64,000 nucleotides of DNA, from NCBI GenBank assembly GCA_009694745.1, contig SHUF01000003.1, positions 26,558 to 90,557 of the forward strand. Reading direction: 5' to 3'. Each line of letters begins with the position of its first letter. Position 1 is the stretch's first letter. Origin of the DNA: Acidobacteriota bacterium (GTDB taxonomy: Bacteria; Acidobacteriota; Vicinamibacteria; Vicinamibacterales; SCN-69-37). Position numbers and translations under genes: made by a program. The notes under the pieces are model-generated. The model saw only the letters and a list, made by a program, of their open reading frames with translations, had not been told where the DNA came from and made no database searches. Shown piece by piece: positions 7,992-59,150 of the stretch.

Positions 7992-8426
7992 GTGCTGCTG
8001 CCGCTCATCCCGGTGTTCCTGAGCTACGTGCTGAGCTTCGTGTATGTCGGCATCTACTGGAACAACCACCACCTGCTCCATGCCTCTCACCGGGTGACGA
8101 GGCCCATCCTGTGGGCCAACCTTCACCTGTTGTTCTGGCTCTCGCTACTGCCGTTCGCGACCGGCTGGATGGGTGAAAACCACTTCGGCGCGGCGCCGTC
8201 GGCGCTGTACGGCGTGGTGCTGCTGATGGCCGCCATCGCGTACTGGATTCTGCAGCAGTGCATCATCGCCTCTCAGGGCCCCGACTCGCTCTTGAAGAGA
8301 GCCGTGGGAAGTGACTGGAAGGGCAAGCTCTCACCGGTGCTGTACGTCCTGGTGGCACTCCTCTGGCTGGTACCGGATCGGCGGATCGAGAAGGCGCTGA
8401 CCGAAAGGAACAACCATCACGGCTAG
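7992..8426 (+). pseudogene. TMEM175/DUF1211-type K+ channel remnant (N-terminally truncated, probable internal deletion)
   Basis: LIPVFLSYVLSFVYVGIYWNNHHLLH, ILWANLHLLFWLSLLPFATGWMGENHF and LWLVPDRRIEK match the family. The N-terminal helix with the RLEAFSDG signature is missing: stop TAA at 7977 in frame, and no homology in any upstream frame. About 20 aa seem absent between GKLSP and VLYVLVALLW. Confidence 0.5.
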
Positions 8427-9676
8427 ATCAGTTCGGCTAGCCGCCGCTCGAGGAAACGCCGTTCGGGCCCTTGACGCGTGAGCGCGAGGGCGCGGGCGTA
8501 GGACGCTCTCGCGTCGGCCGTTCGTCCAAGGCGCCGGCACACGTCAGCGCGCGCCGAGTGTGCCAGGTGGTAGTCATCCAGCTCTCCGGCAGCGAGCAGG
8601 GTTTCGATCAACACCAGCCCCTCGGCCGGACCGTCACGCATCGAGACCGCGGCGGCGCGATTGAGTTGCATCACCGGCGACGCGTCAAGGCGCAGCATGA
8701 TGTCGTAGAGGGCGACGATCGTCTGCCAGTCTGTGGCCTCGGCAGTGTCGGCATGTGCGTGGGCTGCGCCGATGGCCGCTTGCAGCGTGTACGGACCGAT
8801 GCGGCGCGACGCCAGCGCCTGCTCGAGCCGTGTGGCGCCTTCGGCGATGAGCGCGCGGTCCCAACGCGATCGGTCCTGGTCGGCCAGCAGAATCAACACG
8901 CCATCCTCCGACGTGCGAGCTGCGCGCCGCGATTCCTGCAGCAGCATCAACGCCAGCAGGCCCGACGCCTCGGGCTCGGCCAGTAGTTCCACCAGCAACC
9001 GGCCGAGGCGGATCGCCTCTCCCGACAGGCCCTGCCGCGTCAGCGCCTCACCCGACGACGCGGAATAGCCCTCGTTGAAGACCAGGTAGATCACGCGCAG
9101 CACGGTGTCGAGCCTGTCTGGCAGTTCCGTGCGCGACGGCATCTGATACGGAATGCGCGCATCCCGAATCTTCCCCTTGGCGCGCACGATGCGCTGGGCG
9201 ATGGTCCGGGGATCGGTGAGGAAGGCGTGGCCGATCTCCTCGGTGGTGAGACCGCAGACTTCGCGCAGGGTCAGCGCCAGTTGGGCATCGCCTGAGAGGG
9301 CCGGGTGGCAACACGTGAAGATCAGGCGCAGACGGTCGTCTTCGACCTCCTCGGCATCCACATCGGCCTCGGCCGATGACGCCGTGACATCGAGGCTCTT
9401 GGCCAGGGCCGCCGCGGCGCGGTCGAAACGCGCGCGACGCCGCAGCACATCGATCGCTTTGAAACGACCGGTGGACACCAGCTAGGCGCGAGGATTGCCT
9501 GGAACGCCGTCCACGGGCCAGCGCTCGAGCGCCGCGGTGAACGCGTCGTGGAGCGCCTCCTCGGCGAGATCAAAATCGCCGAGGAGGCGTATCAGAGTGG
9601 CCAAAACTCGCCGCGATTCGGCCCTGTAGGTGGCGGCTACGATTTCATGCATCGGCGCCGCCTGAAAATGAGCCAA
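8423..9676 (-). pseudogene. ECF-type RNA polymerase sigma factor (long C-terminal domain type) interrupted by an in-frame TAG
   Basis: ORFs 9482..9676 and 8423..9478 are in one frame. The minus strand reads ...GNPRA-TAG-LVSTGRFKAIDVLRRR. The amber codon (9482..9484) sits where sigma region 2 has its conserved Trp (WL..I..N..D). Without the stop the product is 417 aa. Confidence 0.8.
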
Positions 9677-9696
9677 CTAGCCAATGGGGCAATGGC

Positions 9697-10056: not shown

Positions 10057-10126
10057 CAGTGTTCCCTCCCTTGGGTTGGACGTTCGCATCTAGTCGTTTG
10101 GGCCACCCAAAGATCGACATCATCCC

Positions 10127-15492: not shown

Positions 15493-16902
15493 ATGTATCT
15501 GACCGGAAAACACATCTCGCGCCGCACGGCGTTGCGGGGCCTGGGCGCCACCATCGCGCTGCCGTTGCTCGACTCCATGATCCCCGCGCGCACCGTCTTC
15601 GCCCGCACGGAGGCGGGGCGCCTGGCCGACCGCATGCGACTGGTGTGCATCGAGCAGGTGCATGGGGCCGCTGGTTGCAGCGAAATTGGCGCCGCACAGT
15701 ACTTGTGGAATCCGGCCGAGGTCGGTCGCAAGTTTGACCTGAGCAAAGGCAGCCTGAGTCCGCTTGAGCCGTACCGCGATTACCTGACCATCGTGAGCAA
15801 CACCGACACGCGAATGGCCGAGGCGTTTGCGCCGGCCGAGGTCGGCGGCGATCACTTCAGGTCAAGCGCCGTGATGTTCACCCACGTGCGTCCGAAGCTG
15901 ACCGAAGGGTCGGATGTGCGAGTCGGCACGTCGATGGACCAGCTCTACGTGCAGAAGTTCGGCCAGGACACACCGATCCCGTCGATGCAGCTCAGCATTG
16001 AGCCGGTGGACCAATCCGGCGGCTGCGCCTACGGCTACGCGTGCGTCTACACCGACACCATCAGCTGGGCCGGGCCGGAAGAGCCGCTGCCGATGGTGCG
16101 CGACCCGCGCATGGTGTTTGAGCTGTTGTTCGGCGCCGGCGGCACACCCGAACAGCGCACCATGCGGCGCGCGACGGATCGGAGCATCCTGGATATGCTC
16201 GTGTCGCAGATGGCGGGCCTTCGGCGTGACTTGGGCCCGGCCGACAAGGCGCGGCTCGATCAGTACGCCAGTAATATTCGAGAGATCGAACAGCGCATCC
16301 AGCGCGTCGAAGCGCGCAATGCCAGCGGCGAGACGCGCGAGTTGCCCGGCGCTCCGGCCGGCGTGCCCGACGCGTTTGATGAACACGTCAAGCTGATGTT
16401 CGACCTGCAGCTGCTGGCGTTTACCTCAGACACCACGCGGGTGTTCTCGTTCAAGCTCGGCCGCGACGGTTCAGGCCGCGTGTACCCAGGCAGCGGCATT
16501 GAAACCGGCTTCCACAATGCGTCGCACCACGGCGTGGCCGAGGAACGCATCCGTCAGTTCGCCGAGATCAATAAACACCACGTCTCGATGCTGCCGTACT
16601 TCCTGGAGCGGTTGAAGACCACCATGGAAGGCGACGCGTCGCTGCTCGACAAGACGCTGATCGTGTACGGCTCACCGATGGCGAATGCCAATGTGCACAA
16701 TCACCGGAACTGTCCGCTGATCCTGCTGGGGCGCGGCGGCGGCATCCTCGAAGGCGGCGTGCACCTCAAAGCCGACAGCGGCACGCCCATGGCCAACGTG
16801 ATGCTGGGCCTCATGCACAAGGTGGGACTGGACATGAAGACATTCGGCGATAGCAGCGGCGACTTCTCGTTCACGGCGCCAGGCGCGGTGTCACATGCGT
16901 AG
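15493..16902 (+). CDS. DUF1552 (HXXSHH) family protein with Tat-like signal
   Basis: ATG 15493 with GAGGG RBS. N terminus SRRTALRGLGATIALPLLDSM. Signature FHNASHHG. Confidence 0.75.
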   Translation: MYLTGKHISRRTALRGLGATIALPLLDSMIPARTVFARTEAGRLADRMRLVCIEQVHGAAGCSEIGAAQYLWNPAEVGRKFDLSKGSLSPLEPYRDYLTIVSNTDTRMAEAFAPAEVGGDHFRSSAVMFTHVRPKLTEGSDVRVGTSMDQLYVQKFGQDTPIPSMQLSIEPVDQSGGCAYGYACVYTDTISWAGPEEPLPMVRDPRMVFELLFGAGGTPEQRTMRRATDRSILDMLVSQMAGLRRDLGPADKARLDQYASNIREIEQRIQRVEARNASGETRELPGAPAGVPDAFDEHVKLMFDLQLLAFTSDTTRVFSFKLGRDGSGRVYPGSGIETGFHNASHHGVAEERIRQFAEINKHHVSMLPYFLERLKTTMEGDASLLDKTLIVYGSPMANANVHNHRNCPLILLGRGGGILEGGVHLKADSGTPMANVMLGLMHKVGLDMKTFGDSSGDFSFTAPGAVSHA

Positions 16903-19266: not shown

Positions 19267-19709
19267 ATGATTCGCCCCGCCACCGCTGTCATCCTCGGCT
19301 ACCTCACCATGGCCATCGCCGTCATGGTGGCCTTTGCCGCGACGTATCCCGTGCTTGGCATCGATCGCCTGTTCGCGCCAGGCACATACGAAGCCGCCGG
19401 GGGTGGATTGCGCTGAGCTTCATGCTGGGCCTGTTCAGCGCGGCGGCCGGGGGATGGGTGTGCGCCCGTATCGCACCCGGCACACCCGCGCCGCAATGGC
19501 TGGCGGCGATCGTGATCGTGCTTGGTGCACTGATGGCGGTGCCGGCGGTCATGCCCACGGATCCGGCGCGGGGAGGCGCACGGCCGGCCGACGCCACCAT
19601 GTCTGACGCGATGAACCACGCGCGGCAACCCACCTGGGTGGCGCTCCTTAATCCACTCGTCGGCGCCGCAGGTGTTCTGTTGGGCGCAGGTTTGCGACGC
19701 AAGGGGTGA
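19267..19709 (+). pseudogene. Small integral-membrane protein with probable frameshift in a G5 run
   Basis: ATG 19267 (GGAGAAGG RBS) gives MIRPATAVILGYLTMAIAVMVAFAATYPVLGIDRLFAPGTYEAAGGG then a stop at 19414. Adding one G to GGGGG (19399..19403) joins it to WIALSFMLGLFSAAAGGWVCARIA...GAGLRRKG, ending at 19709. Confidence 0.35.
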
Positions 19710-20212
19710 AGGCACCACTTATCGCCGCAGTGGCGCTTGTGGCCATTGCGGCGCATCTCCTTCTGCGTGTGATGTGGCCCGGCCTCGCCTGGGCCGGGCT
19801 GCCTGCTCAACAGTGGCCCTTGTTTGCCGCGCTGGCCATCGGCGGCGTACCACTGGTGTACGGGCTGGCGCGCAAACTGATCGCAGGTGACTTCAGTTCG
19901 GATCTGCTTGCGGGCATTTCGATCGCCACGGCAGTGCTGCTGGGGGAATACCTGGCCGGCACCCTCGTGGTGCTGATGCTGTCTGGTGGCCAGACCATCG
20001 AGGCGTATGCCGTGGGCCGCGCGTCTTCGGCCCTCTCGGCGCTGGCCCGCCGTATCCCCACCGTCGCGCACAAGAAGACCGGCGACACGATGGCGGACGT
20101 GCCGCTCGAAGCCATCGAGCTAGGCGATACCGTGGTCGTTTTTCCGCATGAGGCGTGTCCGGTGGACGGCGTCGTGGTGAAGGCCGCAGCACGACTGAGC
20201 GGACAACGCTGA
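19706..20212 (+). pseudogene. Heavy-metal P-type ATPase, 5' fragment only
   Basis: GTG 19706 overlaps the preceding stop (GTGA). TM helices plus the start of the actuator domain ([19 protein letters not shown]). Homology stops at 20179 and the frame then reads antisense of the next stump until TGA 20212. Confidence 0.75.
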
Positions 20213-20318
20213 AAATGGCCGTGTTGGCGCCGATGCAGAGCGCCAGAGTCAGGAGCGCCGTGATCGTGAAGCTGCGGTCCTTCAGGAGGAGGCGAACGGT
20301 GTGGCGCAGGCTGGACAT
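20181..20318 (-). pseudogene. ADOP/MacB-like permease, 5' fragment only (46 codons)
   Basis: ATG 20318: [46 protein letters not shown] is the canonical ADOP N terminus. Homology ends at 20181, one base from the ATPase stump. Confidence 0.75.
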
Positions 20319-20355
20319 GCAAGCGGGGGACGGATTGCCCAGGCCTGGTGTTCCC

Positions 20356-21450: not shown

Positions 21451-21541
21451 CTTGCTGCGACCCACGTCCACCTTGGCTGGGATTTCACCCCGTCCATCTC
21501 GGCGAAAGGGGGCTCTGCGGGTTCACAATGGACGTATTGGC

Positions 21542-23107
21542 ATGACCTCTCGGCGTGGCGTTCGGCACCTCCGCGCCCTGGCCGGACTTCCGGCCGCAGT
21601 CACCGCGCTCGTGCTCGTCTACTCGACCATTTTCCACATCCTGATGGCCGCAGAGGAGCGCGCCTACAGCTGGTTTACCGGCGTGTACTGGACGGCTCAG
21701 ACGATGCCGACGCTGGGGTACGGCGACCTCACGTTCACGCGCGATACGGGGCTGGCATTTTCGCTGGTGGTCCTGCTGAGCGGTCTGGTCCTGCTCTTTG
21801 TCCTGCTGCCCTACACGCTCATTCAGTTTTTTTATTCGCCGTGGCTCGAACGGCAGAATGCCGCCCGTACGCCAACGACCATTCCGCACGACATCAGCAA
21901 TCACGTCATCCTCACGGCGTATGGACCCGTCGAAGCCATCCTGATCCAGCGCTTTGATCAGTACGCCATGCCCTATACGGTCATCGTCCCGGACATCGCA
22001 CGCGCCGCATTGGTTGCGACCACGCTGGGCGACGCCGTCAATGCCAACGTCGCGCTCACGGTGCGTGAGTGCTCCAGCACCGTCCCGATCGTGACGACGG
22101 CGGCATTTGAGATGTCGGGCGACCTGCTCAAACAGGCCGGCTGCCAGAACGTGATTCAGCTGGGAGAGTTGCTGGGACGCGCGATAGCCCGCCGGATCAC
22201 GAGCCATGGTGGGCGGCCTCATGTCATCGGCCGGCTGGATGGCCTGGTCATCGCCGAGGCGGCGGTGGCCGGCACCACTCTGGCGGGGCAGACGATTGGC
22301 AATGCCCGAGTGGGCGAGCGCCTGCACGTGAATATCGTCGGTGTCTGGGACAAGGGCGCGTACTCGCCGGGGTTGGCCGGCCTCCTCCTCACTCACGACA
22401 TGACCTTGTTGCTGTCAGGAACCCAGGATGATGTGGACGCGTAAGCCCGCGAATACAGTCTCTCGGCCCCACAGCCGGTCGCCGCCCTCATCGTCGGCGG
22501 CGGACGCGTGGGGCGTGCGACGTCGCGCGCCTTGTCGGCGGATGGCATCGAGCATCAGGTGGTGGAACGGGAACACGTGAAGGTGCCCGACGGGGCGCAC
22601 TGGGTGTTTGGTGATGCCACGGACCCAGAGGTGCTCAACTCGGCGGGCCTCGACACCGCGTCGAGCGTGGCCATCACCACACACGATGACGACCTGAACG
22701 TGTATCTGACGCTCTACTGCCGAGCGAAGCGTCCGGACATCAAGATCTTGAGCCGTTCCACGCACGAGCAGAACGTGGCCACGCTGCGCCTGGCGGGCGC
22801 CAACTTCGTGATGTCGTACGTGCCGATGGAAGCCAACGCCATCTTTGATGTCGTGCGCCACGGCAGCGTGTTGTCGCTCGTGGAGGGGCTGGAGGTGTTC
22901 ACGGTGCGCGTGCCGCGGGAGCTGGCGGGCAGGTCGATCGCCGACTGCAACCTGCGACGCGAGACGGGATGTAACGTGCTGGCAGTCAGGGCGGCCGGCG
23001 GGGCTGCGGCGCCGCCCGACATCCGTGCGTCACTTCGTGCGGACTCCGAACTGGTGCTGATCGGCGACCGCGAAGACGAGCGGCGCTTCTTCGCGCGCTA
23101 CCGCTAG
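21542..23107 (+). pseudogene. K+ channel (TLGYGD pore) with tandem RCK/TrkA domains, split by an in-frame TAA
   Basis: ORFs 21452..22444 and 22508..23107 share one frame. TAA is at 22442..22444. The second Rossmann motif (AALIVGGGRVGRA, 22481..22519) begins upstream of the first possible start (GTG 22508), so the second ORF cannot encode an intact RCK on its own. The first RCK also seems to lack about 30 aa (VIVPDIARAALVATT). Confidence 0.7.
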
Positions 23108-32162: not shown

Positions 32163-35100
32163 ATGCCCGTCCGCTCCCACCAACTGCTCCGCCGCATCGT
32201 CGTCATTCGCCCGGGCGAAGGGGTGACGGCGTGGCTGATGTTCACGTACTCCTTCCTGGTCATGACGGCCTACAACATCGTCAAGCCGATCACCTGATCG
32301 AAGGCCATCAGCGCGCTGGGCGCCGACAACCTGCCGTACGTCTTGATGGGCGCCGCCATCATCATCGGCACGCTGATGCACCTGTACGGGCGCAGCACCG
32401 CCCGGCTGCCGAGGCGCATGGTGGCTCCGGCCACGCAGGCCGGGCTGGCCGTGTTGCTCGTCGCGTTCTAGGTGCTGTTCCGCACCAGAGCGGCATGGGT
32501 CTCTGCGGCGTTTTTGGTGTTTGGCCTCATCTTCGGCTTGCTGCTGGTGAGCCAGTTCTGGACCCTGGCCAACGAGATCTACGACTCGCGTCAGGCCCGG
32601 CGGCTCTTCGGGTTCATTGGTGGCAGCGTGAGCCTGGGCGGCATCACCGGGGCGGCCGTCACGATATTCGCGGTCAGTTCGCTTGGCTCCGACTATCTGG
32701 CGCTGCTCAGCGCCGTCGTGCTGCTGCTCTGCGCGGCCATCGTGGTGGTGATTGGTCGGCGACAACCGGCGGTGGACGACACGCCACTCGTGACCGGCGA
32801 ACCTGAGCCCGACAGGCACGACGCGTAACGGTTGTTACTCGGATTGCGCCACCTCCAACTCATCGCGCTCGTCGTCGGCGTCGCCGCGCTCGGTGCCGTC
32901 TTCGTCGAACAGTAGCTCAACATAGCCGTGGCTGAAAGCGGGGCCACAACCGCCGACATCACCCGCTACCTCGGCCGGGTCACGATGTTCCTGTCGATGG
33001 CCGGACTAGTGGTGCAGGTCGGGCTGACGAGCCGATTGCACCGGACGTACGGTCTGGCCGCGTCTCTGCTCTTGCTGCCGATCGTCCTGGGCGCCAGCAC
33101 TGTGGTCATCTTGGCCACAGGAGCCGTGTGGGCGGCGGCTCTGGCGCGGGTGCTCGATACGTCGTTGCGATACACGGTGGACCGCACCACTCGTGAAGTG
33201 TTGTTCCTGCCGCTTCCAGTGGACCTCACCCAACGGGCCAAACCGTTTGTTGATGTCACCGTCGATCGCATTGCGAAGGGCATCGGCGCGGTGCTGCTGC
33301 TGGTGCTCATCAAGCCGTGGGGTCTCGGTCTGGCCTGGCACCAACTGGGTTACGCCAACCTGATCATCGTGGCAGCGTAAATCGGCCTTGCACTCGCGGC
33401 ACACCGCGAATACCTCAATATGTTCCGGCGCAAAATGCACACAGGCGCCATCCAGCCCGCGGCAGTGAGGTTCGACATCGCCGACAGTCGCACCATTGCC
33501 CTGCTTGTCAGTGAATTGTGGTCGGCGAAAGATGCGTCGGTGGTGTACGCCATCGACATGCTCGAGACGGTGGGCCGCCCCGACGTGCTGCCAGCGTCTC
33601 TGTTATCGCATCAGTCGGGCAACGTACGGGCACGAGCGCTCCTCGCACTGGAACGGAGCGAGTCCGCCGACACCGAGTCGATGCTGCCGATCGTGCGACG
33701 GCTCATGACCGATTCCGAAGCCGACGTGCGCGCCGCTGCGGTGCGAGCCCTGGCCGCGTTGCAACAGGACTCCGAGCGGTCATCGCTTCGTCCCCACCTG
33801 GCCGATCCGTCACCGGCCGTGGCCGCAGCCGCCGCGGTGGAGCTCGCCGACGCGGGCGTGGCAGACGATGAGTCGGCGGCTGAGGCAGCGCTGGCGCGAA
33901 TCATCGCGGATCCGGATGATCCCGCGGGCCGCCGCCACGCTGCCGCGGCCCTGGCGCGCATCCGCAATCCGGCGTTCCGCATCCTGCTCGTGCCGCTCAT
34001 TCATGACCCTGACGAGTCGGTGGCGCGCGAGGCGATCAAAAGCGCGGGCGCGCGAGGCAGTGTGGACGCGCTACTGGTGCCGGCGCTGGTGTCGCGACTG
34101 GGGCATCGCACGCTCAAGCAGCCGGCGCGTGAAGCGTTGGCGGCGTCGGGCGAAGCGGTCGTGGGCGTGCTGACGCATGTGATGGCCGATCCGCACGAGC
34201 ACGTATGGGTGCGGCGCCATGTGCCGGCCACACTGCAGGCCATCCCCTGCCAGCAGTCGGTGGACGCGCTGGTGACGGCGCTTGATGACCCCGACAGCTT
34301 TCTACGGTTCAAGAGCGTGATGGCAATCGAGCGGCTGCAGCGGGCGCACCCCGAGTTGCAGGTGCCATCGGGCGTGATCGAGGCGCGACTGCTGCGCGAG
34401 GCGGCGCACTACTGCGATCGGCTCACCCTGAGGCAAAACTTGATAGAGCGCGATACCGAAAGCGCCGGCACACTGCTGGTGCGTGCACTCGACGACAAGC
34501 TCACCTGCAGCCTAGACCGCATCTTCCGGCTGCTGGGCCTGCGCTACTCGGCCACCGAGCCCGCAGCGCTGGCGTTTGAAGAGGTACTGGAAGGGTCGCC
34601 GATGGCCACGACGATCACGGCCACGAGCCGGATCGCCACGCTGTCGATGACACCGAACGAATTCCTGGCGTTGCTTTCCGAGAATGTCGGCCTGGCGGGT
34701 GGCCTGTTCCGACAGGCGATCAGTTCCCGGGGCCTGGGCGCAGGGCGAACCCTGGTTCGCGGACAGCGGCCCTCGCGTGAGGGCGCCGCAACCGGCGAAC
34801 TCGGTGCGGTGGATCGCCTGCTCGTGCTGCAGTCGAGTCCGCTTCTGGCGCACGCCACGACGGCCCAGTTGTGGAGCCTGTCGCAGATCGCCAGGCAAGT
34901 GACCCTTGCGGCCGGTGCAGAACCCGTCAAGTCCGACACCGGGCCGTCGATGCTGTTTGTGCTGACCGGCACCCTGCGGGTGGACCAGGGCGGCGCCTCC
35001 GCCATGGCTGCAGCCGGCGACGTGATCGGCGTCCATGAGACACTGGCCGGCACCCGGATCGAGGCGACCGTGACGGTCGTGGAGCCGGCCACGCTGCTGA

Positions 35101-35189
35101 AGCTCGACCGGGACGAGCTGTTTGAACTGCTGGCCGACCACACGGACTTGCTGCAAGGGCTGTTTTCGAAACTGGTTCGTCAGTCGTAA
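32163..35189 (+). pseudogene. TLC (ATP/ADP-translocase-like) transporter fused to HEAT repeats and a cyclic-nucleotide-binding domain, with five in-frame stops
   Basis: A single frame runs from ATG 32163 to 35189. Stops: TGA 32295 (KPIT*SK, family has R), TAG 32469 (VAF*VLF, family has W), TAA 32826, TAG 32913 (VEQ*LN, family has Q) and TAA 33378. The flanking sequence stays family-like throughout (SQFWTLANEIYD..AKRLFGFIGG-like block, HEAT repeats, cNMP-like C terminus). Confidence 0.8.
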
Positions 35190-35219: not shown

Positions 35220-36040
35220 ATGAGAGCGATCGTTGCGCGTATAGGTGTCATCGTTGTCTTGAGCGCGACGGCGTTGATGGCCCAGGCTGCACCGCAGAGT
35301 GCGGCCGTCTACCAGGGTCAGGCTGCGGAGGACTTCCTCACGAATGCTCGAATCGTTTCGACGCGACCGATTGGGGAAGGTGTGACTCGCCCGTTCCGTG
35401 TCACGCTCGATCTGAACGGGGTGCCTGGCCAGGGTATCTTCAAGTCGATTGACGAGCGCAAGGCTGGTGTCACAACTTTGGCCGATGGGTCATCGGAGAT
35501 TGATTTTCAGGATAGCTGGCAGACTGAGGTCGCCGGCTATCTTCTTGACCGCATGATCGGGCTCGAGATGGTGCCCGCGACCGTCAAACGCCGCGTGGAT
35601 GGCAAGGTCGGATCGCTGCAATGGTTTGTTCCGGGGATGATCCCGGAGGCGGAGCGGCTTGAGAAGAAGATGTCGCCGCCCAACCTGGACGACTGGAACG
35701 AGAGGTCTTCAAGGTTCGCCTGTTTGACGAACTCCTCTTCAACGCCGACCGTCACCTCAAGAACATTCAGGTCACCGGTGACTTCAACATCCGCCTGATC
35801 GATCATTCCCGCACATTCAGGATCAATCGTGCGCTGAAAAAGCCAGATACCCTGCAGAAGTTCTCGCGCTCCCTGCTCGACCGAATCGCAAAGCTGGAGA
35901 AGAAGAGGCTGCAGGCTCGCTTGGGCGAGTACCTGACCGGAGGCCAGATTGAACGGGTGCTTCAGCGCCGCGACGCGATCCTTGCGCTCGCAAAAAAGCG
36001 CGTGGCGGAGCAGGGCGAGGCGGCGGTCCTTTACAGGTAG
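35220..36040 (+). pseudogene. Secreted PI3/PI4-kinase-like (DRHxxN) protein with a 1-nt frameshift
   Basis: GGAGGAAG RBS and signal peptide. Frame 0 reads ...PPNLDDWNE then nonsense. From about 35703, the frame offset by one base reads VFKVRLFDELLFNADRHLKNIQV...LIDHSRTF... to TAG 36038..36040. Restoring one base (gag-Cag-gtc) joins the two parts. Confidence 0.65.
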
Positions 36041-45335: not shown

Positions 45336-45575
45336 ATGAAGACGGCCATTTCGCTGCCGGACAGCGTTTTTCGCGACGCCGAACGTCATGCCAAGCGAAC
45401 GCGCAAGTCGCGAAGCCAACTCTACGCGGAGGCCCTGTCTGAGTACTTGGCTCGACACGCCCCCGACGAAGTCACCCAGAACATGAACACGGTGATCGCG
45501 CAACTTGATGGCAGCGGCCGCGACCGCTTCGTGTCGGGAGCGGCACAGCGGATTCTGGCGAGCACCGAGTGGTAG
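45336..45575 (+). CDS. Ribbon-helix-helix (CopG/MazE-like) antitoxin
   Basis: MKTAISLPDSVFRDAERHAKRTRKSRSQLYAEALSEYL. 79 aa. The stop overlaps the toxin start. Confidence 0.75.
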   Translation: MKTAISLPDSVFRDAERHAKRTRKSRSQLYAEALSEYLARHAPDEVTQNMNTVIAQLDGSGRDRFVSGAAQRILASTEW

Positions 45576-45908
45576 AGGTCACGCAAGGTGACCTCTGGTG
45601 GGCGGAAGCCCACTGGGTCTGGGCCCTGCTTCCGGCGGCCGGTCGTGGTCATCCAGGGGAACTCCCTGAATCGCAGTCGCATCGCTATGGTTGTCTGCGT
45701 TCCGCTCACCAGCAATCTGGTGTGAGCCGACGCCCCCGGCAATGTACCCCTCGTCGGAAAGGCGACAGGCTTGCCCAAGGACTCGGTCGCGAATGTGTCG
45801 CAGCTCATCACACTCGATCGCTCTCTACTCACCGAGCGTGTGGGCCGGCTGGGACCGAAGGTGATCGCACAAGTTCTTCATGGCGTCGATATCGTGCTGG
45901 GGCGATGA
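45569..45908 (+). pseudogene. MazF/PemK-family toxin, inactivated by a frameshift and an in-frame TGA
   Basis: GTG 45569 gives VEVTQGDLWWAEA. The family sequence then continues in another frame from about 45609: PTGSGPCFRRPVVVIQGNSLNRSRIAMVVCVPLTSNLV-TGA(45723..45725)-ADAPGNVPLVGKATGLPKDSVANVSQLITLDRSLL...VLGR, with the stop at 45906. Confidence 0.75.
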
Positions 45909-46565: not shown

Positions 46566-47456
46566 ATGCGAAGTTACCTGGTTGCGTTCGGACAGCGGGT
46601 GCGGATCACGCATCACCGGCTAGGCCGTTGGGCGTGGCCGGTCTGGGTCTCCTCTAGTGCCGTCGCAGTGGTGCTCTTTAACCTGTTGCTCGTGGTTCCC
46701 GGGCCAGGCGGCATTCGTTCGGCCGCGAACATGCCCGTCTCGACGCTGGTCTACGACATGCGGGACCGGCCGGTGTTCAACATCTTCCGGGAGCACCGCA
46801 CCCTTGTCGGCCTCAACCAGATTTCCCCGCACATGCTCCGTGCCGTGCTGGCCGTTGAGGACGAGCGCTTCTACCGGCACCAGGGCATCGATCTCTGGCG
46901 AATGGGCGGAGCGGCAGTCGCCAATTTCAAGCAAGGGGCGATCGTGCACGGCGGCTCCACGATCACACAACAGCTGGCGCGCAAGACGTTCCTGAACGAC
47001 AACAAGACGTTCTGGCGAAAGGCCCGCGAGATTGTGCTGGCCGTGCGACTGGAGTGGGCGTTCTCGAAGGATGAGATCCTCGAGATGTACCTCAACCGGA
47101 TCTACTTCGGCCGCGGCTGCTACGGCATCGAGGCCGCCGCGCAGGGCTACTTCGGGAAAGCGGCGCTGGCGCTCACCGTGGATGAAGCGGCACTCCTGGC
47201 CGGCCTGATTCAGGCGCCGTCGGCATACGCGCCGCCGTCGAACCTTGACCGCGCGATCGCGCGGCGAACCGTGGTGCTGCGCCGCATGCAGGCGGTCGGC
47301 GCAATGACGGAAGCCGAAGCCGCGAGTGCCATCAAGGCCAAGGTGCAGCTGCGCCGCGAACCCGCGCAACCGCGCTTCGGCGAATATTTCCGCAATCGCG
47401 TGGCCCAGGAACTGGTGGACGGCGCAGGCCCTGAAATTACTTGGACCGAGCCGTGA
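46566..47456 (+). CDS. GT51 peptidoglycan glycosyltransferase domain protein (probably a truncated class-A PBP)
   Basis: N-terminal TM. AVEDERFYRHQGID, GGSTITQQLAR, RKAREIVLAVRLE, LEMYLNRIYFG. It ends in the linker (YFRNRVAQEL) where PBP1A proteins continue into the transpeptidase domain. Confidence 0.75.
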   Translation: MRSYLVAFGQRVRITHHRLGRWAWPVWVSSSAVAVVLFNLLLVVPGPGGIRSAANMPVSTLVYDMRDRPVFNIFREHRTLVGLNQISPHMLRAVLAVEDERFYRHQGIDLWRMGGAAVANFKQGAIVHGGSTITQQLARKTFLNDNKTFWRKAREIVLAVRLEWAFSKDEILEMYLNRIYFGRGCYGIEAAAQGYFGKAALALTVDEAALLAGLIQAPSAYAPPSNLDRAIARRTVVLRRMQAVGAMTEAEAASAIKAKVQLRREPAQPRFGEYFRNRVAQELVDGAGPEITWTEP

Positions 47457-47630: not shown

Positions 47631-49436
<1,806 letters not shown>

Positions 49437-49443
49437 GCGGCAG

Positions 49444-49449
49444 ATTCTA
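49444..49449 (-). promoter_or_regulatory. -10-like box TAGAAT, 7 nt upstream of cstA ATG (leaderless geometry)
   Basis: Minus strand reads gaggtTAGAATctgccgcATGcac. Confidence 0.4.
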
Positions 49450-49493
49450 ACCTCAATTGCGCCGGGCCTCGACAGAACCTGTGCCTTCGGGCG

Positions 49494-52034
49494 ATGATGT
49501 TCGACGCGACAGGCCTCTGCCTGCGCGACAGGGAGACAGGTTTGAAGATTACAACTCGACGTATTCGCCTGGCGGTCACCGCCGGTCTGGTCGCGATCGC
49601 GGCCCTGACCATCAGCAACATCAATCACATCGACGCGCAGACGGCACCGGCCCTGCAGGCGCAGGATGCCCCGCAGGCGCCCGCGGCGCCCGTGCATACC
49701 GGCGGCGAAGCGAACCTCATCATGCCCGACCTGAGCCAGGTGTCGTTCTTGGGCGTCGATGGTCGCACGCTGCTGATGGTTGGCCTGCTGGTCTGTGCGC
49801 TGGGCCTGCTCTTCGGCCTGGTCATTTACACGCAGCTCAAGAACATGCCCGTGCATGCGTCGATGCTTGAGGTCTCAGAACTGATCTATGAGACCTGCAA
49901 GACCTACCTGATTCAGCAGGGGAAATTGCTGCTGATCCTGGAACTCTTCATCGGCACGATCATCTTCTACTACTACTTCTTCCTCCTGCACTTCTCGCTG
50001 ACCAGGGTCAGCATCATCCTGTTCTTCAGCCTGGTGGGCATCGCGGGCAGCTTCGGCGTGGCGTGGTTTGGCATTCGCGTCAACACGTTCGCCAATTCCC
50101 GCACCGCATTCGCCAGCCTCCGGGGCAAGCCCTATCCCTGCTACGCCATTCCGCTCAAGGCGGGCATGAGCATCGGCATGATGCTGATCAGCGTCGAACT
50201 CCTGCTGATGTTGTTCATCCTGCTGTTTGTCCCCGGTGACTACGCGGGCGCCTGCTTCATCGGATTCGCCATCGGCGAATCGCTCGGCGCGTCTGCCCTG
50301 CGAATCGCCGGCGGCATCTTCACGAAGATCGCCGACATCGGCGCCGACCTGATGAAGATTGTCTTCAAGATCAAGGAAGACGACGCGCGCAACCCGGGCG
50401 TCATTGCCGACTGCACGGGCGACAACGCCGGCGACTCGGTGGGCCCCAGCGCCGACGGCTTCGAGACCTACGGCGTCACGGGCGTGGCGCTCATCACGTT
50501 TATTCTGTTGGCCGTCGACAACGTCGGCCTCCAGGTGCAGTTGCTGGTCTGGATCTTCATGATGCGCATCATCATGGTGGTCGCGTCCGGCGTCTCCTAC
50601 CTCGTCAACGAAATGTGGGCGAAGGCGCAGTACGTCAAGGTGGACAAGATGAACTACGAGGCGCCACTGACCCGTCTGGTCTGGCTCACCTCCATCGTGT
50701 CGGTCGGCCTGACCTTCCTCGCGTCTTACCTCCTCATTCCGAACCTGTCGGGCGACATCACCATGTGGTGGAAACTGTCGCTGATCATCACCTGCGGCAC
50801 GCTGGCCGGCGCGATCATCCCGGAGTTGGTCAAGGTCTTCACCTCAACCGAATCCGCTCACGTCCGTGAAGTGGTCTCCTCGTCGCGCGAAGGCGGCGCA
50901 TCGCTCAACATCTTGTCGGGCCTAGTGGCCGGCAACTTCTCGGCGTACTGGCTCGGCCTCAGCATCATGTTGCTGATGGCGGCGGCCTACTACGTGAGCG
51001 GTTTCGGGCTGGAGCAGATCGGTATGATCGCCCCGGCGGTCTTCGCGTTCGGCCTTGTCGCGTTCGGCTTCCTGGGCATGGGCCCGGTGACCATTGCCGT
51101 GGACTCCTATGGACCGGTCACCGACAACGCGCAGTCGGTCTACGAACTGTCGCAGATCGAGGAGATCGCCGGCATCAAGGGATCGCTCAAGACCCAGTAC
51201 GGGTTTGACGCGAACTTCGAGAAAGCCAAACACAACCTCGAAGAGAACGACGGCGCCGGCAACACGTTCAAGGCCACGGCCAAGCCCGTGCTGATCGGCA
51301 CGGCCGTCGTCGGCGCAACGACCATGATTTTTGCGATTATCGTGATGCTGACCAGCGAGCTCACGGCCAATCTGGACAAGCTGTCGATTTTGCACCCGCC
51401 CTTCCTGCTGGGCCTGATTACCGGCGGCGCGATGATCTACTGGTTCACCGGCGCGTCGATTCAGGCTGTCACCACCGGGGCGTATCGCGCCGTGGAGTTC
51501 ATCAAGGCCAACATCAAGCTCGAAGGCGTCACCAAGGCGTCGGTCGAAGACTCAAAGAAGGTGGTCGAGATCTGCACGAAGTACGCGCAGAAGGGCATGT
51601 TCAACATCTTCCTCGGCGTCTTCTTCGGCACGCTGGCATTCGCCTTCGCCGAGCCGTTCTTCTTCATCGGCTATCTCATCTCCATCGCCCTGTTTGGTCT
51701 CTATCAGGCCATCTTCATGGCCAACGCGGGCGGCGCGTGGGACAACGCGAAGAAGATCGTCGAAGTGGAACTGAAGGCCAAGGGCACGCCGCTGCATGAC
51801 GCGTCGGTCGTGGGCGACACCGTCGGTGATCCGTTCAAGGACACGTCGTCGGTTGCCATGAACCCGGTGATCAAGTTCACCACGCTGTTCGGATTGCTCG
51901 CCGTGGAACTGGCCGTGCGGTTGACGCGCGAACAAGGCGCCGGGCTCACGCACACACTCGCGCTGGGCTTCTTCCTGATCTCGGTCTTCTTCGTGTGGCG
52001 CTCGTTCTACTCGATGCGGATCAAGTCGGAGTAA
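49494..52034 (+). CDS. hppA: Membrane-bound proton-translocating pyrophosphatase
   Basis: SELIYETCKTYL, DCTGDNAGDSVGPSADGFETYG, GNTFKATAKP, GDTVGDPFKDTSS. Start is ATG 49494, or TTG 49542 (GGGAGA RBS; MKITTRRIRLAV...). ORF 48615.. is over-extended antisense to cstA. Confidence 0.9.
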   Translation: MMFDATGLCLRDRETGLKITTRRIRLAVTAGLVAIAALTISNINHIDAQTAPALQAQDAPQAPAAPVHTGGEANLIMPDLSQVSFLGVDGRTLLMVGLLVCALGLLFGLVIYTQLKNMPVHASMLEVSELIYETCKTYLIQQGKLLLILELFIGTIIFYYYFFLLHFSLTRVSIILFFSLVGIAGSFGVAWFGIRVNTFANSRTAFASLRGKPYPCYAIPLKAGMSIGMMLISVELLLMLFILLFVPGDYAGACFIGFAIGESLGASALRIAGGIFTKIADIGADLMKIVFKIKEDDARNPGVIADCTGDNAGDSVGPSADGFETYGVTGVALITFILLAVDNVGLQVQLLVWIFMMRIIMVVASGVSYLVNEMWAKAQYVKVDKMNYEAPLTRLVWLTSIVSVGLTFLASYLLIPNLSGDITMWWKLSLIITCGTLAGAIIPELVKVFTSTESAHVREVVSSSREGGASLNILSGLVAGNFSAYWLGLSIMLLMAAAYYVSGFGLEQIGMIAPAVFAFGLVAFGFLGMGPVTIAVDSYGPVTDNAQSVYELSQIEEIAGIKGSLKTQYGFDANFEKAKHNLEENDGAGNTFKATAKPVLIGTAVVGATTMIFAIIVMLTSELTANLDKLSILHPPFLLGLITGGAMIYWFTGASIQAVTTGAYRAVEFIKANIKLEGVTKASVEDSKKVVEICTKYAQKGMFNIFLGVFFGTLAFAFAEPFFFIGYLISIALFGLYQAIFMANAGGAWDNAKKIVEVELKAKGTPLHDASVVGDTVGDPFKDTSSVAMNPVIKFTTLFGLLAVELAVRLTREQGAGLTHTLALGFFLISVFFVWRSFYSMRIKSE

Positions 52035-52896: not shown

Positions 52897-53637
52897 TTAG
52901 CCAGCTTGTTGTTCGGCGCTCCACAGGAACATTCGACGGTTCCCGGACTCGATGAACTCTGTAGCGGACTGCCGATACGCCAGATAACCCTCGAGGTCCT
53001 GCGGGACCGGTGATGTGCTGAAGTCCTTGAATGCGGAGAAGAATTTCACGAAGGAACAGTCTTCTGCAACGAGGTCCTGCAACAGGAAGAACTCAACGTA
53101 CCCCCGAAAGTCACTGAACAGCCCGAAGAAGGCGTCGTATCGCTGGAGCACTGCACCCAACGGACTTGGCTCCCGGCGGTAGTGTCGACGGATGCACTCG
53201 ACCGTGAGGCCGAACCGATCTTTGATCCGTGGATGGAAACCGCGTGCGCCGTTGATTGTCATCTTCCGGCCAACCCGTTCTGCCGTGAAAACCATCATTC
53301 CGCCGATCGTGTAACCAACGCGGAGAAACGACTCTTGCTCAGCCGCTGGGATTGCACCGAGGACCTGCGACAGACGCGATTCCTTTCTGAACGTGGGGAT
53401 CACCGCGTCGCTGCCGAGGAAAAACTCCCCCAATTCTGACTTGTGGTACAGGTAGTGCTGAGTGGTGTCATCCAGCGAGAACAACGCGCCGTTCGGTAGA
53501 CGTTTACTCCACAAGTGTCGATGATGTCGACGAAGCGCTGGGCTGCAAGAATCAGGGTCTTTCTTCGGATAGCTCGGTGTGTCCGACCTGAAATCGAACG
53601 TGACGTTAATCTGGCCTGGCGTTCGAATTTCAGTCAT
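52897..53637 (-). CDS. Conserved-looking hypothetical protein, orphan gene with lower GC than its surroundings
   Basis: 246-aa ORF with non-repetitive, globular-looking sequence (FDFRSDTP...LWSKRLPNG...TINGARGF...FRGYVEFFLLQDLV). Codon third positions are visibly richer in A/T than in neighbouring genes. No SD seen. Confidence 0.6.
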   Translation of the reverse strand: MTEIRTPGQINVTFDFRSDTPSYPKKDPDSCSPALRRHHRHLWSKRLPNGALFSLDDTTQHYLYHKSELGEFFLGSDAVIPTFRKESRLSQVLGAIPAAEQESFLRVGYTIGGMMVFTAERVGRKMTINGARGFHPRIKDRFGLTVECIRRHYRREPSPLGAVLQRYDAFFGLFSDFRGYVEFFLLQDLVAEDCSFVKFFSAFKDFSTSPVPQDLEGYLAYRQSATEFIESGNRRMFLWSAEQQAG

Positions 53638-56614: not shown

Positions 56615-56702
56615 ACCCAGCCCCCTTGTACTTTTCCGTTGTCCGGCCAGATTGTATCGCCAGATCCTGAACTTCAGTCGCATCGAACCCGTCTGACAGC
56701 CC

Positions 56703-59150
56703 ATGACGACCCTGCTGCAGGACCTCCGCCTCGCCCTCCGCCTCTTTCGGCGGCAACCTGGATTTGCACTCGTCGCCGTGCTGGTCCTTGGACTGGGTAT
56801 CGGGGCCAATGCCACCATCTTCAGCCTCGTGAACGCGCTGGTGCTCAAACCGCGCCTCGGGGCCGGCGAGCAACTGGTCTCGGTCTACTCCAAGAATCGC
56901 GCTGAGCCCGACACCTTTCGCGCGTTCTCCTACGACAATTTCTCCGACCTGCGCAGCCGCACGAAGATCTTCGCGTCACTGACGGCGCACAACCCGGCGA
57001 TGGTCGGCATCTCCGAAGGCGATGCCACGCGACGCTCCTTCATCGACATCACCACCGGCGATCTGTTCGAGACGTTCAAGGCGCCGCTGCGCATGGGCCG
57101 GTCGTTCACCCGCGCCGAGGAACGGCCCGGCGCCGACATCCCGGTCACCATCCTCAGCCATGTCGCGTGGACCCATATGGGCGCGCCGGCAGACGTCGTG
57201 GGCCGCACCATCAAGATCAACCAGCGCGATTTCACGATCATCGGCGTGGCCCCGGCCGGGTTCGGCGGAACGATGTCGATGGTGACACCCGAGTTGTGGG
57301 TACCCACCGGCGTCTACGGGTCCGTGGTCAACGACTTCGACAGCGAAACGCGCACAGGCACGCTCGCCGACCGGCGCCACCATTCGTTGATGCCCTTCGG
57401 TCGCCTGCGCGAGGGGGTCACCATGGAGTCCGCCGCGCCGCTGCTGGCCGCTGCCGGCGCCTAGATGGAGTCGTCGTTCCCGGTCGAGAACAAGAACCAG
57501 GACCTGGTCCTTGGTGCCCTGTCGCGGCTGTCGGTGAGCACCAGCCCGTCCGACGACAGTCAGGTGTCCATCGTGGCGATGAGCCTGCTCGTGATGTCGG
57601 GCATCGTGTTGCTGGTGGCCTCGCTCAATCTGGCGAACATGCAACTGGTCCGTGCCGGCTCGCGCAGCAAGGAGTTCGCGATTCGGCTGGCCATCGGCGG
57701 CAGCCGCACCCGCTTGGTGCGCCAGTTAGTCACTGAAGGACTCCTGCTGGCGCTGGCCGGTGGGGCCGTCGCCCTGTTCATCTCATAGGCGGCAATGTGG
57801 GCCCTTTTGAACGGCATGAGCGGACTGCTTCCCATTCTCATGAGCCTGGGGCCCGCTCTTGCGTCGGCACGGACATCCGTATTGCCTGAATTGAAGGAGC
57901 ACGCGGGCGAACTGAAAGTCACACGCCGCGCGCGGTTCGCGCCACGCAACCTGCTGGTCATGGGGCAACTGGCCCTGAGCCTGACGCTGCTCACCACCGC
58001 CGGCGCGTTCATCCGCGGCGCCGTGGTGGCGGCCCGTGTCGATCCTGGTTTCTCGTTCGACCGCGGCATCCTCGCCAACCTCGACGCGAGCCTGGCCAAC
58101 TACGATGACGTGCGGGCCACGGCGCTCTACGGGCAGGTCCTCGAACGCGTTCGGCAGGTGCCGGGCATCACGCACGCCGGCCTCGCCACCCAGATGCCCT
58201 TCGGCGACATTCAGGAATCAGGGCGGGTGCAGAAGGCCGGCACCATCATCACGCCGGCCGACCCAAATTACTCGATCGCCACCGTCGCGGCCGTGACCAT
58301 GGGCATCTCGCCCAACTACTTCACGGCGCTGGGGCTGACGATGCAGCGGGGCCGTGACTTTACGGAATCCGAGTGGCACACACCGGGCCGCGCCCCCATC
58401 GGCATTATCGACCAGGCGCTGGCGAAGCGTCTGTTTGGCCAGGAGGATCCCATCGGTCGGCAGATCCAGACTCGCCCACGTGGCGATGGGTCCGTTGAAG
58501 TGATTGAGGTCGTCGGTCTGGCCCCAGACATCCGGCACCAGATGGAAGATTCGGAAGCGGGCCCTCACCTGTATCGCCCGCTCGCCCAGAATTTTCGATC
58601 GGGCGTCTACCTCCACGTCAGCACCGCCAGCGGAGAAGGCGAAGCGGCGATGCTGCCCGCCATGCGCGCGCTGCTGCGGGAGATCGATCCCACGCTGCCC
58701 GTGGTCACACTGGAGACCGGCCCGATGTTCCGCGAACGAAACGCGGTGCTGTGGATCGTCAGGACCGGCGCCACGCTCTTCGGCGTCTTCGGTGCCGTGG
58801 CGTTGTTCATGGCGGCGCTGGGCATCTATGGCGTGAAGTCGTATCTGGTGTCGCGCCGCACCCGGGAACTCGGCATCCAGATGGCGCTGGGGGCCACCCC
58901 CCGCGACGTGGTGGCCCTGGTCATGCGCGACGGCCTGTGGCAGACCGTGGCTGGCCTGGTCGTCGGATTGGGTCTGTCAGCACTGGCGGTCCGAGGCGTG
59001 GCCGGCCTGCTCTTCGACGGCGGCAGTTTTGATCTGCCGATCGTCGGCGCGGCGTTTGTGACGCTGGCGGCCGCCGCCATCGCGGCCACATGGATGCCCG
59101 CGCGGCGGGCCACCAGGATCGCGCCGTCAGTGGCCTTGCGGTCCGAGTAG
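56703..59150 (+). pseudogene. ADOP-type MacB/FtsX permease with two in-frame TAG codons
   Basis: One frame runs 56703..59150. TAG at 57462..57464 (LLAAAGA*MESSFPVENKNQ) and at 57786..57788 (ALFIS*AAMWALL). Canonical N terminus [47 protein letters not shown] and C terminus MPARRATRIAPSVALRSE. Confidence 0.8.

What the first reader, a model, noticed from the sequence alone, without database searches (positions are those of the whole stretch)
7992..59150. Unusually dense gene decay: about 12 of about 50 genes are disrupted
Read directly from the sequence, grouped by lesion type. In-frame stops inside otherwise continuous family-like frames: ECF sigma (TAG), K+ channel (TAA), TLC-HEAT-cNMP transporter (5 stops), ADOP permease (2 TAG), MazF (TGA plus a frameshift). 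Single-base frameshifts: PI3/4K-like gene and a small membrane protein at a G5 run. Truncations or internal deletions: TMEM175 remnant, P-type ATPase stump, ADOP stump, GT51-only PBP. Where the ancestral residue can be inferred from family conservation, the change is a GC->AT transition: W/TGG->TAG twice, R/CGA->TGA, Q/CAG->TAG. Housekeeping genes (glnS, prfC, hppA, bcp) are intact. The decayed genes are mostly transporters, regulators and a toxin. This looks like ongoing relaxed selection or genome reduction in a lineage normally regarded as free-living. Alternatively it is an assembly or consensus problem.
Basis: partly seen in the sequence, partly recalled or inferred. Interest (0 to 1): 0.65.

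Follow-up and report, generated by a model that had tools for sequence, protein, structure and literature searches.

The report
Real, ongoing gene decay in Acidobacterium
About one gene in four in this 51-kb stretch of an uncultured Vicinamibacterales (Acidobacteriota) genome is truly broken; at least 13 other assemblies of the same species carry the same breaks plus some of their own, so this is real, continuing gene loss and not a sequencing artefact.

Summary
Ten of the eleven named lesions are real: ECF sigma, RCK K+ channel, TLC-HEAT-cNMP transporter, ADOP permease, MazF, PI3/4K-like gene, small membrane protein, TMEM175 remnant, P-type ATPase stump and ADOP stump. That is 10 of about 43 loci, or 21% of the bases. 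The GT51-only protein has no lesion in any conspecific genome, so I do not count it.

More distant relatives (78-90% nt identity) carry intact full-length orthologues. At least 13 other assemblies of the same species (98-99.5% nt) share the older lesions and show nested, strain-specific ones. ADOP runs from 840 aa, to a 75-nt deletion, to one TAG, to two TAG. The K+ channel has TAA in this strain and a 684-nt deletion in its sisters. This rules out assembly error, recoding and conserved split genes.

Within the species, intact genes have pN/pS of 0.14-0.22, whereas the TLC N-terminus has 0.92 and the ATPase stump 1.57.

New findings: the TLC gene is a chimera made by a 4.4-kb deletion between tandem paralogues, and small indels against a relative are almost all deletions.

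One puzzle remains. The TLC gene gained four stop codons, three of them two-base changes, with almost no extra missense change (P about 1e-4, post hoc).

The genome-wide pseudogene load and the habitat could not be tested.

The parts
7992..8426 (+). TMEM175/DUF1211 K+ channel remnant. It is truncated at the 5' end and has internal deletions of 1 and 18 codons. These lesions are specific to this strain.
   Evidence: The Pfam match covers only profile positions 35-88 of 88. Homologues are 194-199 aa, and a 197-aa intact copy lies on a 127,264-nt contig, the same length as conspecific contig L192's. The alignment shows the missing FSDG helix and the 18-aa gap.
8423..9676 (-). ECF sigma factor pseudogene (Sigma70_r2, r4_2, DUF6596, TPR) with an in-frame TAG at 9482-9484.
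   Evidence: Region 2 and region 4 lie in one frame on either side of the stop. The stop replaces a Trp found in 9 of 9 homologues. The same 351-aa truncated ORF, 99.4% identical, occurs in another assembly.
19267..19709 (+). Small membrane protein with a 1-nt deletion at 19403, just after a G5 run. The lesion is specific to this strain.
   Evidence: Sister genomes have GGGGGC where the window has GGGGG, and they call an intact 147-aa gene. A second assembly (ERZ1305449) whose gene calls match this strain's shows the same split into 49 and 95 aa.
19706..20212 (+). N-terminal stump of a heavy-metal P1B-type ATPase.
   Evidence: It matches residues 45-199 of the 682-aa Cd-ATPase 7qbz_A at E = 1.6e-16. 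There is a weak E1-E2_ATPase Pfam match. Within the species it has 2 synonymous and 8 missense polymorphisms, pN/pS 1.57.
20187..20321 (-). N-terminal stump (~45 aa) of an ADOP permease. It converges on the ATPase stump, so one deletion probably removed both 3' parts.
   Evidence: tblastn of the window's own ADOP matches here at E = 3.6e-5. Relative L169 has an 817-aa ADOP at this position next to XdhC, and homology stops at window position 20182.
21542..23107 (+). RCK-type K+ channel pseudogene (Ion_trans_2 plus two TrkA_N/TrkA_C pairs). It has TAA at 22442-22444 (from TAC), an 87-nt in-frame deletion at 21999, and a 378-nt deletion at 21504. The last removed an upstream 127-aa gene and the region 5' of the channel.
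   Evidence: Pfam places the domains on both sides of the stop. Intact orthologues are 555 aa. Alignment to L169 locates the deletions and the TAC codon. Sister genomes instead carry a 684-nt deletion spanning 21771-22454.
32163..35189 (+). Chimeric TLC-HEAT-cNMP pseudogene. TLC1 residues 1 to ~797 are fused to TLC2 from residue ~1005 by a ~4.4-kb deletion. The junction is at 34554-34558, with about 4 nt of microhomology. Five in-frame stops lie at 32295, 32469, 32826, 32913 and 33378.
   Evidence: Relatives have two intact tandem genes of 1207-1228 aa. blastn and tblastn show the join. Four stops are shared species-wide and 32913 is found only in the window. Within-species pN/pS is 0.92.
35220..36040 (+). 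Pseudogene of a conserved 264-274-aa protein (weak PI3_PI4_kinase hit in relatives), with a 1-nt deletion at about 35703.
   Evidence: The three-way alignment shows GAG-AGG in the window against GAGCAG or GAACAG in relatives. tblastn splits the match between frames +3 and +2 at 35702-35705. The deletion is shared by all conspecifics.
45576..45908 (+). MazF/PemK toxin pseudogene with TGA at 45723-45725 (species-wide) and an 8-nt deletion at 45606 (in every genome except L176).
   Evidence: No gene is called here in any of 10 conspecific loci.
46566..47456 (+). GT51 (Transgly) protein of 296 aa.
   Evidence: The Transgly domain is complete, 10-178 of 178. The identical protein occurs on at least 16 contigs, and the full-length cluster members are 296-299 aa. 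The nearest 50%-identity representative is a 796-aa protein, and the best NCBIfam match is the N-terminal part of PBP_1a_fam. An old loss of the transpeptidase domain is therefore possible but unproven.
56703..59150 (+). ADOP duplicated permease pseudogene. It has a 75-nt in-frame deletion at about 57843 that removes a predicted membrane segment, then TAG at 57462-57464 and TAG at 57786-57788, both from Trp.
   Evidence: Pfam finds MacB_PCD and FtsX twice, spread over three ORFs in one frame. The population shows a nested series: 840 aa, then 815 aa, then 253 + 561 aa, then 253 + 107 + 451 aa. The intact form scores 695 bits against TIGR03434 ADOP.

Best explanation
These are true pseudogenes and gene remnants in a natural population of an uncultured Vicinamibacterales species.

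Shown:
- Genes for ion channels, transporters, a sigma factor, a toxin and a few proteins of unknown role were hit by ordinary spontaneous mutations. Most point changes are GC>AT, turning Trp, Gln and Arg codons into stops. The rest are 1-8-nt frameshifting deletions, in-frame deletions, and kilobase deletions with only microhomology at the junction.
- Nothing removes the broken copies, so each goes on collecting lesions. Older lesions are shared by the whole species and younger ones differ between strains.
- Housekeeping and lipid-synthesis genes interspersed among them remain under strong purifying selection.

Inferred:
- These particular functions became dispensable, or costly, in this lineage's present niche.
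- A mutational bias towards deletion is then slowly removing them.
For: - Intact full-length orthologues exist in relatives at 78-90% nt identity, in conserved synteny.
- Stops replace conserved residues. They are not at linkers.
- At least 13 other assemblies at 97.9-99.5% identity carry the same lesions.
- Lesions are nested or alternative between strains, for ADOP, MazF, TLC, the K+ channel, TMEM175 and the small membrane protein.
- Within-species pN/pS is 0.14-0.22 for intact genes. It is 0.92 for the TLC N-terminus and 1.57 for the ATPase stump.
- Against L169 the window shows nine deletions (1-378 nt) and one 1-nt insertion.
- All three stop codons end intact genes: TGA 14, TAG 14, TAA 6.
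- The substitution rate in the TLC pseudogene is no higher than in glnS, and GC>AT bias is seen in both lineages, so there is no hypermutation.
Against: - The TLC N-terminus has far more nonsense than neutral decay predicts. The stem branch has 4 stops against about 0.2 expected, and three of them are two-base changes.
- The K+ channel's dN/dS against L169 (0.11-0.15) is as low as its neighbours', so its inactivation is recent and its neutrality is not shown directly.
- Only one window was seen, so the genome-wide pseudogene load is unknown.
- Two strain-specific 1-nt deletions (19403 next to G5, and 20177) are supported only by an assembly that is probably built from the same sample.
- Habitat and lifestyle could not be verified with the tools.
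Confidence: 0.8

Rival explanations
1. The region is a chance or local cluster. The lesions are real, but the genome-wide pseudogene fraction is ordinary (1-5%) and this happens to be a patch of dispensable accessory genes.
For: - Only 64 kb was available.
- Several lesions sit at structurally variable spots. A 4.7-kb PQQ-PadR-ADOP block is present in L167-L171 and absent here. Two conspecifics lose synteny after hppA.
- The window reached me because a reader flagged it, which is a selection effect.
Against: - The lesions are spread over 51 kb, between core genes (glnS, prfC, hppA) in synteny conserved down to 78% identity.
- Ten of about 43 loci, against about 2 expected at 5%, gives a hand Poisson estimate near 1e-4.
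Confidence: 0.3
2. Inactivation was driven by selection, not only tolerated. Shutting down costly or harmful membrane transporters was favoured, so successive nonsense mutations and changes to the tight stop TAA were positively selected.
For: - On the TLC stem branch there are 25 synonymous, 8 missense and 4 nonsense changes, against 26 synonymous and 3 missense on the sister branch.
- P(nonsense | nonsynonymous) is 0.039.
- Poisson P(4 or more) is 8e-5, or 0.003 with a generous bound.
- Three of 4 stop codons carry two changes, against 1 of 37 other changed codons (Fisher 0.0015).
- All stops lie in the membrane domain, upstream of a 601-codon stretch that stays open.
- The K+ channel was knocked out independently in two sublineages.
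Against: - The test is post hoc, on the gene with the most stops.
- One early stop should be enough.
- The two recent stops (32913 in the window, 33033 in sisters) lie downstream of older ones and must be neutral.
- ADOP and MazF fit plain sequential decay.
- No expression or fitness data exist.
Confidence: 0.2
3. The interrupted genes still work, either by stop-codon read-through or reassignment or as split genes whose parts assemble.
For: - Frames stay open and conserved between the stops.
- There is little missense change on the TLC stem.
- Some stops are followed directly by ATG or GTG, for example TAG-ATG in ADOP.
Against: - All three stop codons are involved, and TAG stands in for both Trp and Gln.
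- All three also terminate intact genes.
- Within-species pN/pS is 0.92 in the TLC N-terminus, and further stops and a 25-nt frameshift have arisen in sisters.
- The same genes also carry frameshifts and domain-removing deletions.
Confidence: 0.04
4. The lesions are assembly, binning or consensus errors in one MAG.
For: - The source is a metagenome-assembled genome.
- One frameshift abuts a G5 run.
Against: - The shared lesions are identical in at least 13 other assemblies, including two other NCBI MAGs.
- Most lesions are substitutions or long deletions, not homopolymer indels.
- The lesions form nested series between strains.
Confidence: 0.02

Closest known systems
Pseudogene accumulation after a recent ecological shift or bottleneck (Mycobacterium leprae, Sodalis/Symbiopectobacterium, Shigella, Salmonella Typhi). 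General statement in PMC9336565 and PMC11229322; the examples are from my own knowledge.
   Same: - A high local density of nonsense, frameshift and deletion lesions.
- Transporters, regulators and toxin-antitoxin genes are hit first, while translation and core metabolism are spared.
- Indels are biased towards deletion.
- Lesions are nested among strains.
   Different: - This clade is known from environmental metagenomes, with no evidence of a host.
- No IS elements or transposases are in the window.
- Purifying selection on intact genes is still efficient, with pN/pS 0.14-0.22.
- GC content stays at 65%.
Genome streamlining in free-living aquatic bacteria, for example the freshwater Acidobacteriota genus UBA12189 'Acidiparvus' (PMC11561045)
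   Same: - An Acidobacteriota lineage losing transporters and regulatory genes.
- The conspecific genomes were assembled from many metagenome samples.
   Different: - Streamlined genomes are described as small (<1.4 Mb), low in GC (44-49%) and densely coding (92-95%).
- Here GC is 65% and 21% of the region is dead sequence.
- If this is reduction, it is at an early, untidy stage.
- The order is also different: Vicinamibacterales rather than Holophagaceae.
Deletion between tandem paralogues that yields a chimeric gene
   Same: The TLC1 and TLC2 tandem genes were joined in frame by a ~4.4-kb deletion.
   Different: The join is about 208 residues out of register and rests on about 4 nt of microhomology. 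It is therefore illegitimate recombination, not unequal homologous crossing-over, and the product carries stop codons.

Membership tests
Bacterial pseudogene | Clear homology to a family whose members are full-length elsewhere | tested here: met
   There are Pfam, NCBIfam or PDB matches for every locus except the small membrane protein. The PI3/4K-like protein has only weak hits, to TIGR03843 and to PF00454 in relatives. Intact orthologues measure 1207-1228, 555, 840, 817, 264-274, 197 and 147 aa.
Bacterial pseudogene | A disrupting lesion relative to the closest intact orthologue, at a conserved position | tested here: met
Bacterial pseudogene | The lesion is reproducible in independent data | tested here: met
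   At least 13 other assemblies at 98-99.5% identity carry the shared lesions. The strain-specific lesions recur only in ERZ1305449, which is probably built from the same sample.
Bacterial pseudogene | Loss of purifying selection (pN/pS near 1) | tested here: inconclusive
   The test is met for the TLC N-terminus (0.92; 5 synonymous, 12 missense, 2 nonsense) and the ATPase stump (1.57). The HEAT-cNMP part is intermediate at 0.42. Counts are too small for MazF and PI3/4K. ADOP is confounded by a divergent intact allele.
Bacterial pseudogene | No protein product | not testable with these tools
   This needs metaproteomics or ribosome profiling.
Stop-codon reassignment or programmed recoding | One stop codon consistently stands for one amino acid and is avoided as a terminator | tested here: not met
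   TAG stands in for Trp and Gln, TAA for Trp and Tyr, and TGA for Arg. Intact genes end in TGA 14, TAG 14 and TAA 6 times.
Conserved split gene or programmed frameshift | The same break is present in orthologues of related species | tested here: not met
   L081, L082-L085 and L167-L171 have uninterrupted genes.
Hypermutation by a deaminase or UV-type process | An elevated, context-specific C>T rate or CC>TT tandems in the affected region | tested here: not met
   The window-lineage rate is 4.4% in the TLC N-terminus and 4.6% in glnS. CCA context shows no enrichment, 0.027 against a 0.04 mean. None of 25 tandem polymorphisms is CC>TT.
Monofunctional peptidoglycan glycosyltransferase (MtgA), for the 296-aa GT51 protein | A score above the TIGR02070 equivalog cut-off | tested here: not met
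   The score is 157.5 bits against a cut-off of 182.65. The best match is the N-terminal 213 of 535 positions of PBP_1a_fam. The protein works like a GT51-only enzyme but is not a member of the MtgA equivalog.
Genome-wide reductive evolution | A raised pseudogene fraction and reduced genome size across the whole genome | not testable with these tools
   Only the 64-kb window and ±10-kb pieces of relatives were available.

The most novel reading that the evidence does not exclude
The stop codons in the TLC transporter, and perhaps in other membrane proteins here, were positively selected rather than arising as passive decay. Under this reading a large environmental population shut down a costly or harmful transporter step by step. 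The trace it left is a large excess of nonsense over missense change and repeated TGG>TAA two-base conversions to the tightest stop codon. If general, it would be a recognisable genomic signature of adaptive gene silencing in free-living bacteria.
Probability: 0.15. Interest if true: 0.65.

Novelty: new member of a known kind. Interest (0 to 1): 0.45.

Why it matters
Dense pseudogenes are textbook for bacteria newly confined to hosts, and they are described as rare in other prokaryotic chromosomes (PMC9336565, PMC11229322).

Here an environmental Acidobacteriota species shows a quarter of the genes in a core, syntenic region in various stages of loss. More than a dozen conspecific genomes record the order of events.

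If the whole genome looks like this, the species would be a natural time series of genome reduction outside symbiosis. It could be used to measure deletion bias, pseudogene half-life and which functions go first.

The nonsense excess in one gene is also a concrete hypothesis that can be tested genome-wide.

Tried and rejected
- **Hypermutation or deaminase signature.** Rejected. Substitution rates match glnS, there is no CCA hotspot, and there are no CC>TT tandems.
- **A shared methylation-type motif at the stops** (GCG before TAA, GCGCC before TAG). Dropped. The K+ channel TAA derives from TAC, and the contexts are otherwise forced by the codons involved.
- **EamA (150 aa) as a half-gene.** Rejected. 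It is the same length in relative L087 and in all conspecifics.
- **The 107-aa gene upstream of the TonB receptor as the 'G5' frameshift.** Rejected. It is intact.
- **Nearest relative from the genome-contig scan with glnS.** This gave only the taxon (83% identity to a Vicinamibacterales genome) and no synteny.
- **Exact look-ups of the 589-aa ORF and of YCII.** Both found nothing.
- **MazF homologues.** They were crowded out of the third protein search by TMEM175 hits.
- **Rfam and tRNA scans.** Nothing was found, so there is no suppressor tRNA in the window.
- **Literature look-ups by accession.** Nothing was found.
- **Habitat of the samples.** It could not be established.


Full report
**What the window is.** The sequence has 65% GC and no tRNA or Rfam hits. 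I mapped genes with a codon-usage frame plot and Pfam. Exact protein look-ups identify it as an NCBI MAG labelled 'Acidobacteria bacterium' (proteins MSO48550-MSO48593, locus tags EXQ49_*, contig 112,190 nt). The deposited annotation already contains the truncated ORFs. The nearest named relatives are Vicinamibacterales.

**Checking the lesions.** Ten of the eleven named lesions are real.
- The ECF sigma factor has TAG at 9482-9484 in place of a Trp invariant in 9 of 9 homologues.
- The RCK K+ channel has TAA at 22442-22444.
- The TLC-HEAT-cNMP gene has five stops in one continuous frame.
- The ADOP permease has two TAG codons.
- MazF has an 8-nt deletion and a TGA. Once repaired, it matches PemK_toxin at 1e-23.
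- The PI3/4K-like gene has a 1-nt deletion at about 35703.
- A small membrane protein has a 1-nt deletion after GGGGG at 19403.
- TMEM175 lacks its first ~32 residues, including the FSDG helix, and also has an 18-codon internal deletion.
- The ATPase stump covers only residues 45-199 of a 682-aa Cd-ATPase.
- An ADOP N-terminal stump of ~45 aa lies at 20187-20321 on the minus strand, where relative L169 has an 817-aa gene.

The GT51-only protein is different. It has a complete domain and no internal lesion. It is 296-299 aa in the full-length members of its 90% cluster, and the identical protein is on at least 16 contigs. Its nearest distant homologue is a 796-aa protein and its best NCBIfam match is the PBP1A N-terminus. 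An old loss of the transpeptidase domain is therefore possible, but it is not current decay. The tally is 10 of about 43 loci and 21.4% of bases.

**Outgroups show the intact state.**
- A wastewater contig (L081, ~90% nt) and contigs L082-L085 (78-84%) are syntenic from the lipid cluster through glnS to the sulfatase gene. They carry two intact tandem TLC-HEAT-cNMP genes (1207-1228 aa) and an intact 264-274-aa PI3/4K-like gene.
- The window's TLC gene is therefore a chimera. TLC1 up to residue ~797 is joined in frame to TLC2 from residue ~1005 by a ~4.4-kb deletion, with about 4 nt of microhomology at the junction.
- The ancestral codons at the five stops were CGG/AGG, TGG, TGG, CAG and TGG.
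- Contigs L167-L171 (86-88%) carry an intact 555-aa K+ channel, a 127-aa gene upstream of it and an 817-aa ADOP beside XdhC.
- Against L169 the window shows nine deletions (1-378 nt) and one 1-nt insertion. The K+ channel stop derives from TAC, which is a transversion.

**Conspecific genomes rule out artefact and show the order of events.** Look-ups returned loci at 97.9-99.5% identity from at least 13 other assemblies, including two other NCBI MAGs.
- Shared by all of them: four TLC stops, the TLC1-TLC2 fusion, the PI3/4K frameshift, the MazF TGA, the ATPase and ADOP stumps, and the 378-nt deletion.
- Polymorphic or nested:
  - ADOP runs from 840 aa intact, to 815 aa with a 75-nt deletion, to one TAG, to two TAG in the window. 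Both TAG codons derive from Trp.
  - The MazF 8-nt deletion is absent from L176.
  - TLC TAG 32913 is found only in the window. Sisters have TGA at 33033 and a 25-nt deletion at 34022.
  - The K+ channel has TAA here and a 684-nt deletion in sisters.
  - TMEM175 and the small membrane protein are intact in sisters.
- ERZ1305449, probably built from the same sample, reproduces this strain's ORF pattern.

**Selection.** Within the species, intact genes have pN/pS of 0.14-0.22. The TLC N-terminus has 0.92 (5 synonymous, 12 missense, 2 nonsense) and the ATPase stump 1.57. All three stop codons terminate intact genes. These results exclude recoding and conserved split genes. They show relaxed selection on specific genes, not general relaxation. 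The K+ channel's dN/dS against L169 (0.11-0.15) equals that of its neighbours, so its loss is recent.

**What does not fit.** On the branch from the L081 split to the species ancestor, the TLC N-terminus has 25 synonymous, 8 missense and 4 nonsense changes. The L081 branch has 26 synonymous and 3 missense. Given P(nonsense | nonsynonymous) of 0.039, about 0.2 stops are expected. Poisson P is 8e-5, or 0.003 with a generous bound. Three of the four stops are two-base changes, against 1 of 37 other changed codons (Fisher 0.0015). I found no hypermutation, no context hotspot and no CC>TT tandems. The test is post hoc, on the gene with the most stops. Selection for earlier or tighter termination of a dead membrane protein is a possible reading, and I rate it at about 0.15-0.2.

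**Verdict.** This is real, ongoing, gene-specific decay with a deletion bias, in a species of a clade known from environmental samples. The mechanism is ordinary. The instance is uncommon outside host-restricted bacteria (context: PMC9336565, PMC11229322). It also differs from the tidy streamlining described for freshwater Acidobacteriota (PMC11561045). The genome-wide extent and the habitat remain untested.

Noticed in passing
window 23190-30442: An intact gene cluster is syntenic in all relatives. It comprises NTP_transf_3, CDP-alcohol phosphatidyltransferase, a 332-aa unknown, an acyltransferase, a class I/II aminotransferase resembling serine palmitoyltransferase, an ADC-like protein, a DAGK/YegS lipid kinase and a Zn-ADH. 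It looks like a sphingolipid or inositol-phospholipid pathway.
   Followed up: no
window 23759/23760; L167 3458-8150: Relatives L167-L171 carry a 4.7-kb block (PQQ_2 beta-propeller, PadR, 893-aa ADOP) between NTP_transf_3 and CDP-OH_P_transf. The block is cleanly absent from the window. Whether this is a deletion here or an insertion there could not be decided.
   Followed up: partly
window 45336-45575: The RHH antitoxin left orphaned by the MazF loss shows 0 synonymous, 3 missense and 1 nonsense polymorphisms among conspecifics. L176 has 66 aa instead of 79, so the antitoxin may be starting to decay too.
   Followed up: partly
window 32913-32915: The same Gln codon was changed independently in two sublineages within about 2% divergence: CAG>TAG in the window and CAG>CAA in L184-L187.
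   Followed up: partly
window ~51905 onward; L179, L181: Two conspecific genomes lose all similarity to the window directly after hppA. This is a structural variant that replaces the EamA-DUF6994-metzincin-ADOP segment.
   Followed up: no
L082-L084 7244-8153: Relatives carry a HepT/MNT toxin-antitoxin pair, and L083 and L084 also an integrase fragment, inserted between the Zn-ADH gene and glnS. The window lacks this insertion.
   Followed up: no
window 20359-21438, 52900-53637, 44870-45283: XdhC, DUF6994 and the LMW phosphatase are intact but show within-species pN/pS of 1 or more, on very small counts (2 synonymous/6 missense, 1/5 and 1/3). They may be next in line or it may be noise.
   Followed up: no
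window 47631-49874(-) and 48561-52034(+): Two very long open frames overlap on opposite strands. Only the CstA part (minus strand, to about 49436) and the hppA part (plus strand, from about 49494) are real. The 5' extension of the hppA frame is a GC-rich artefact.
   Followed up: yes
window 16895-18646: A 583-aa protein consists almost entirely of ankyrin repeats. It is conserved and intact in conspecifics. Such proteins are often linked to host interaction, which bears on the unverified 'free-living' assumption.
   Followed up: no
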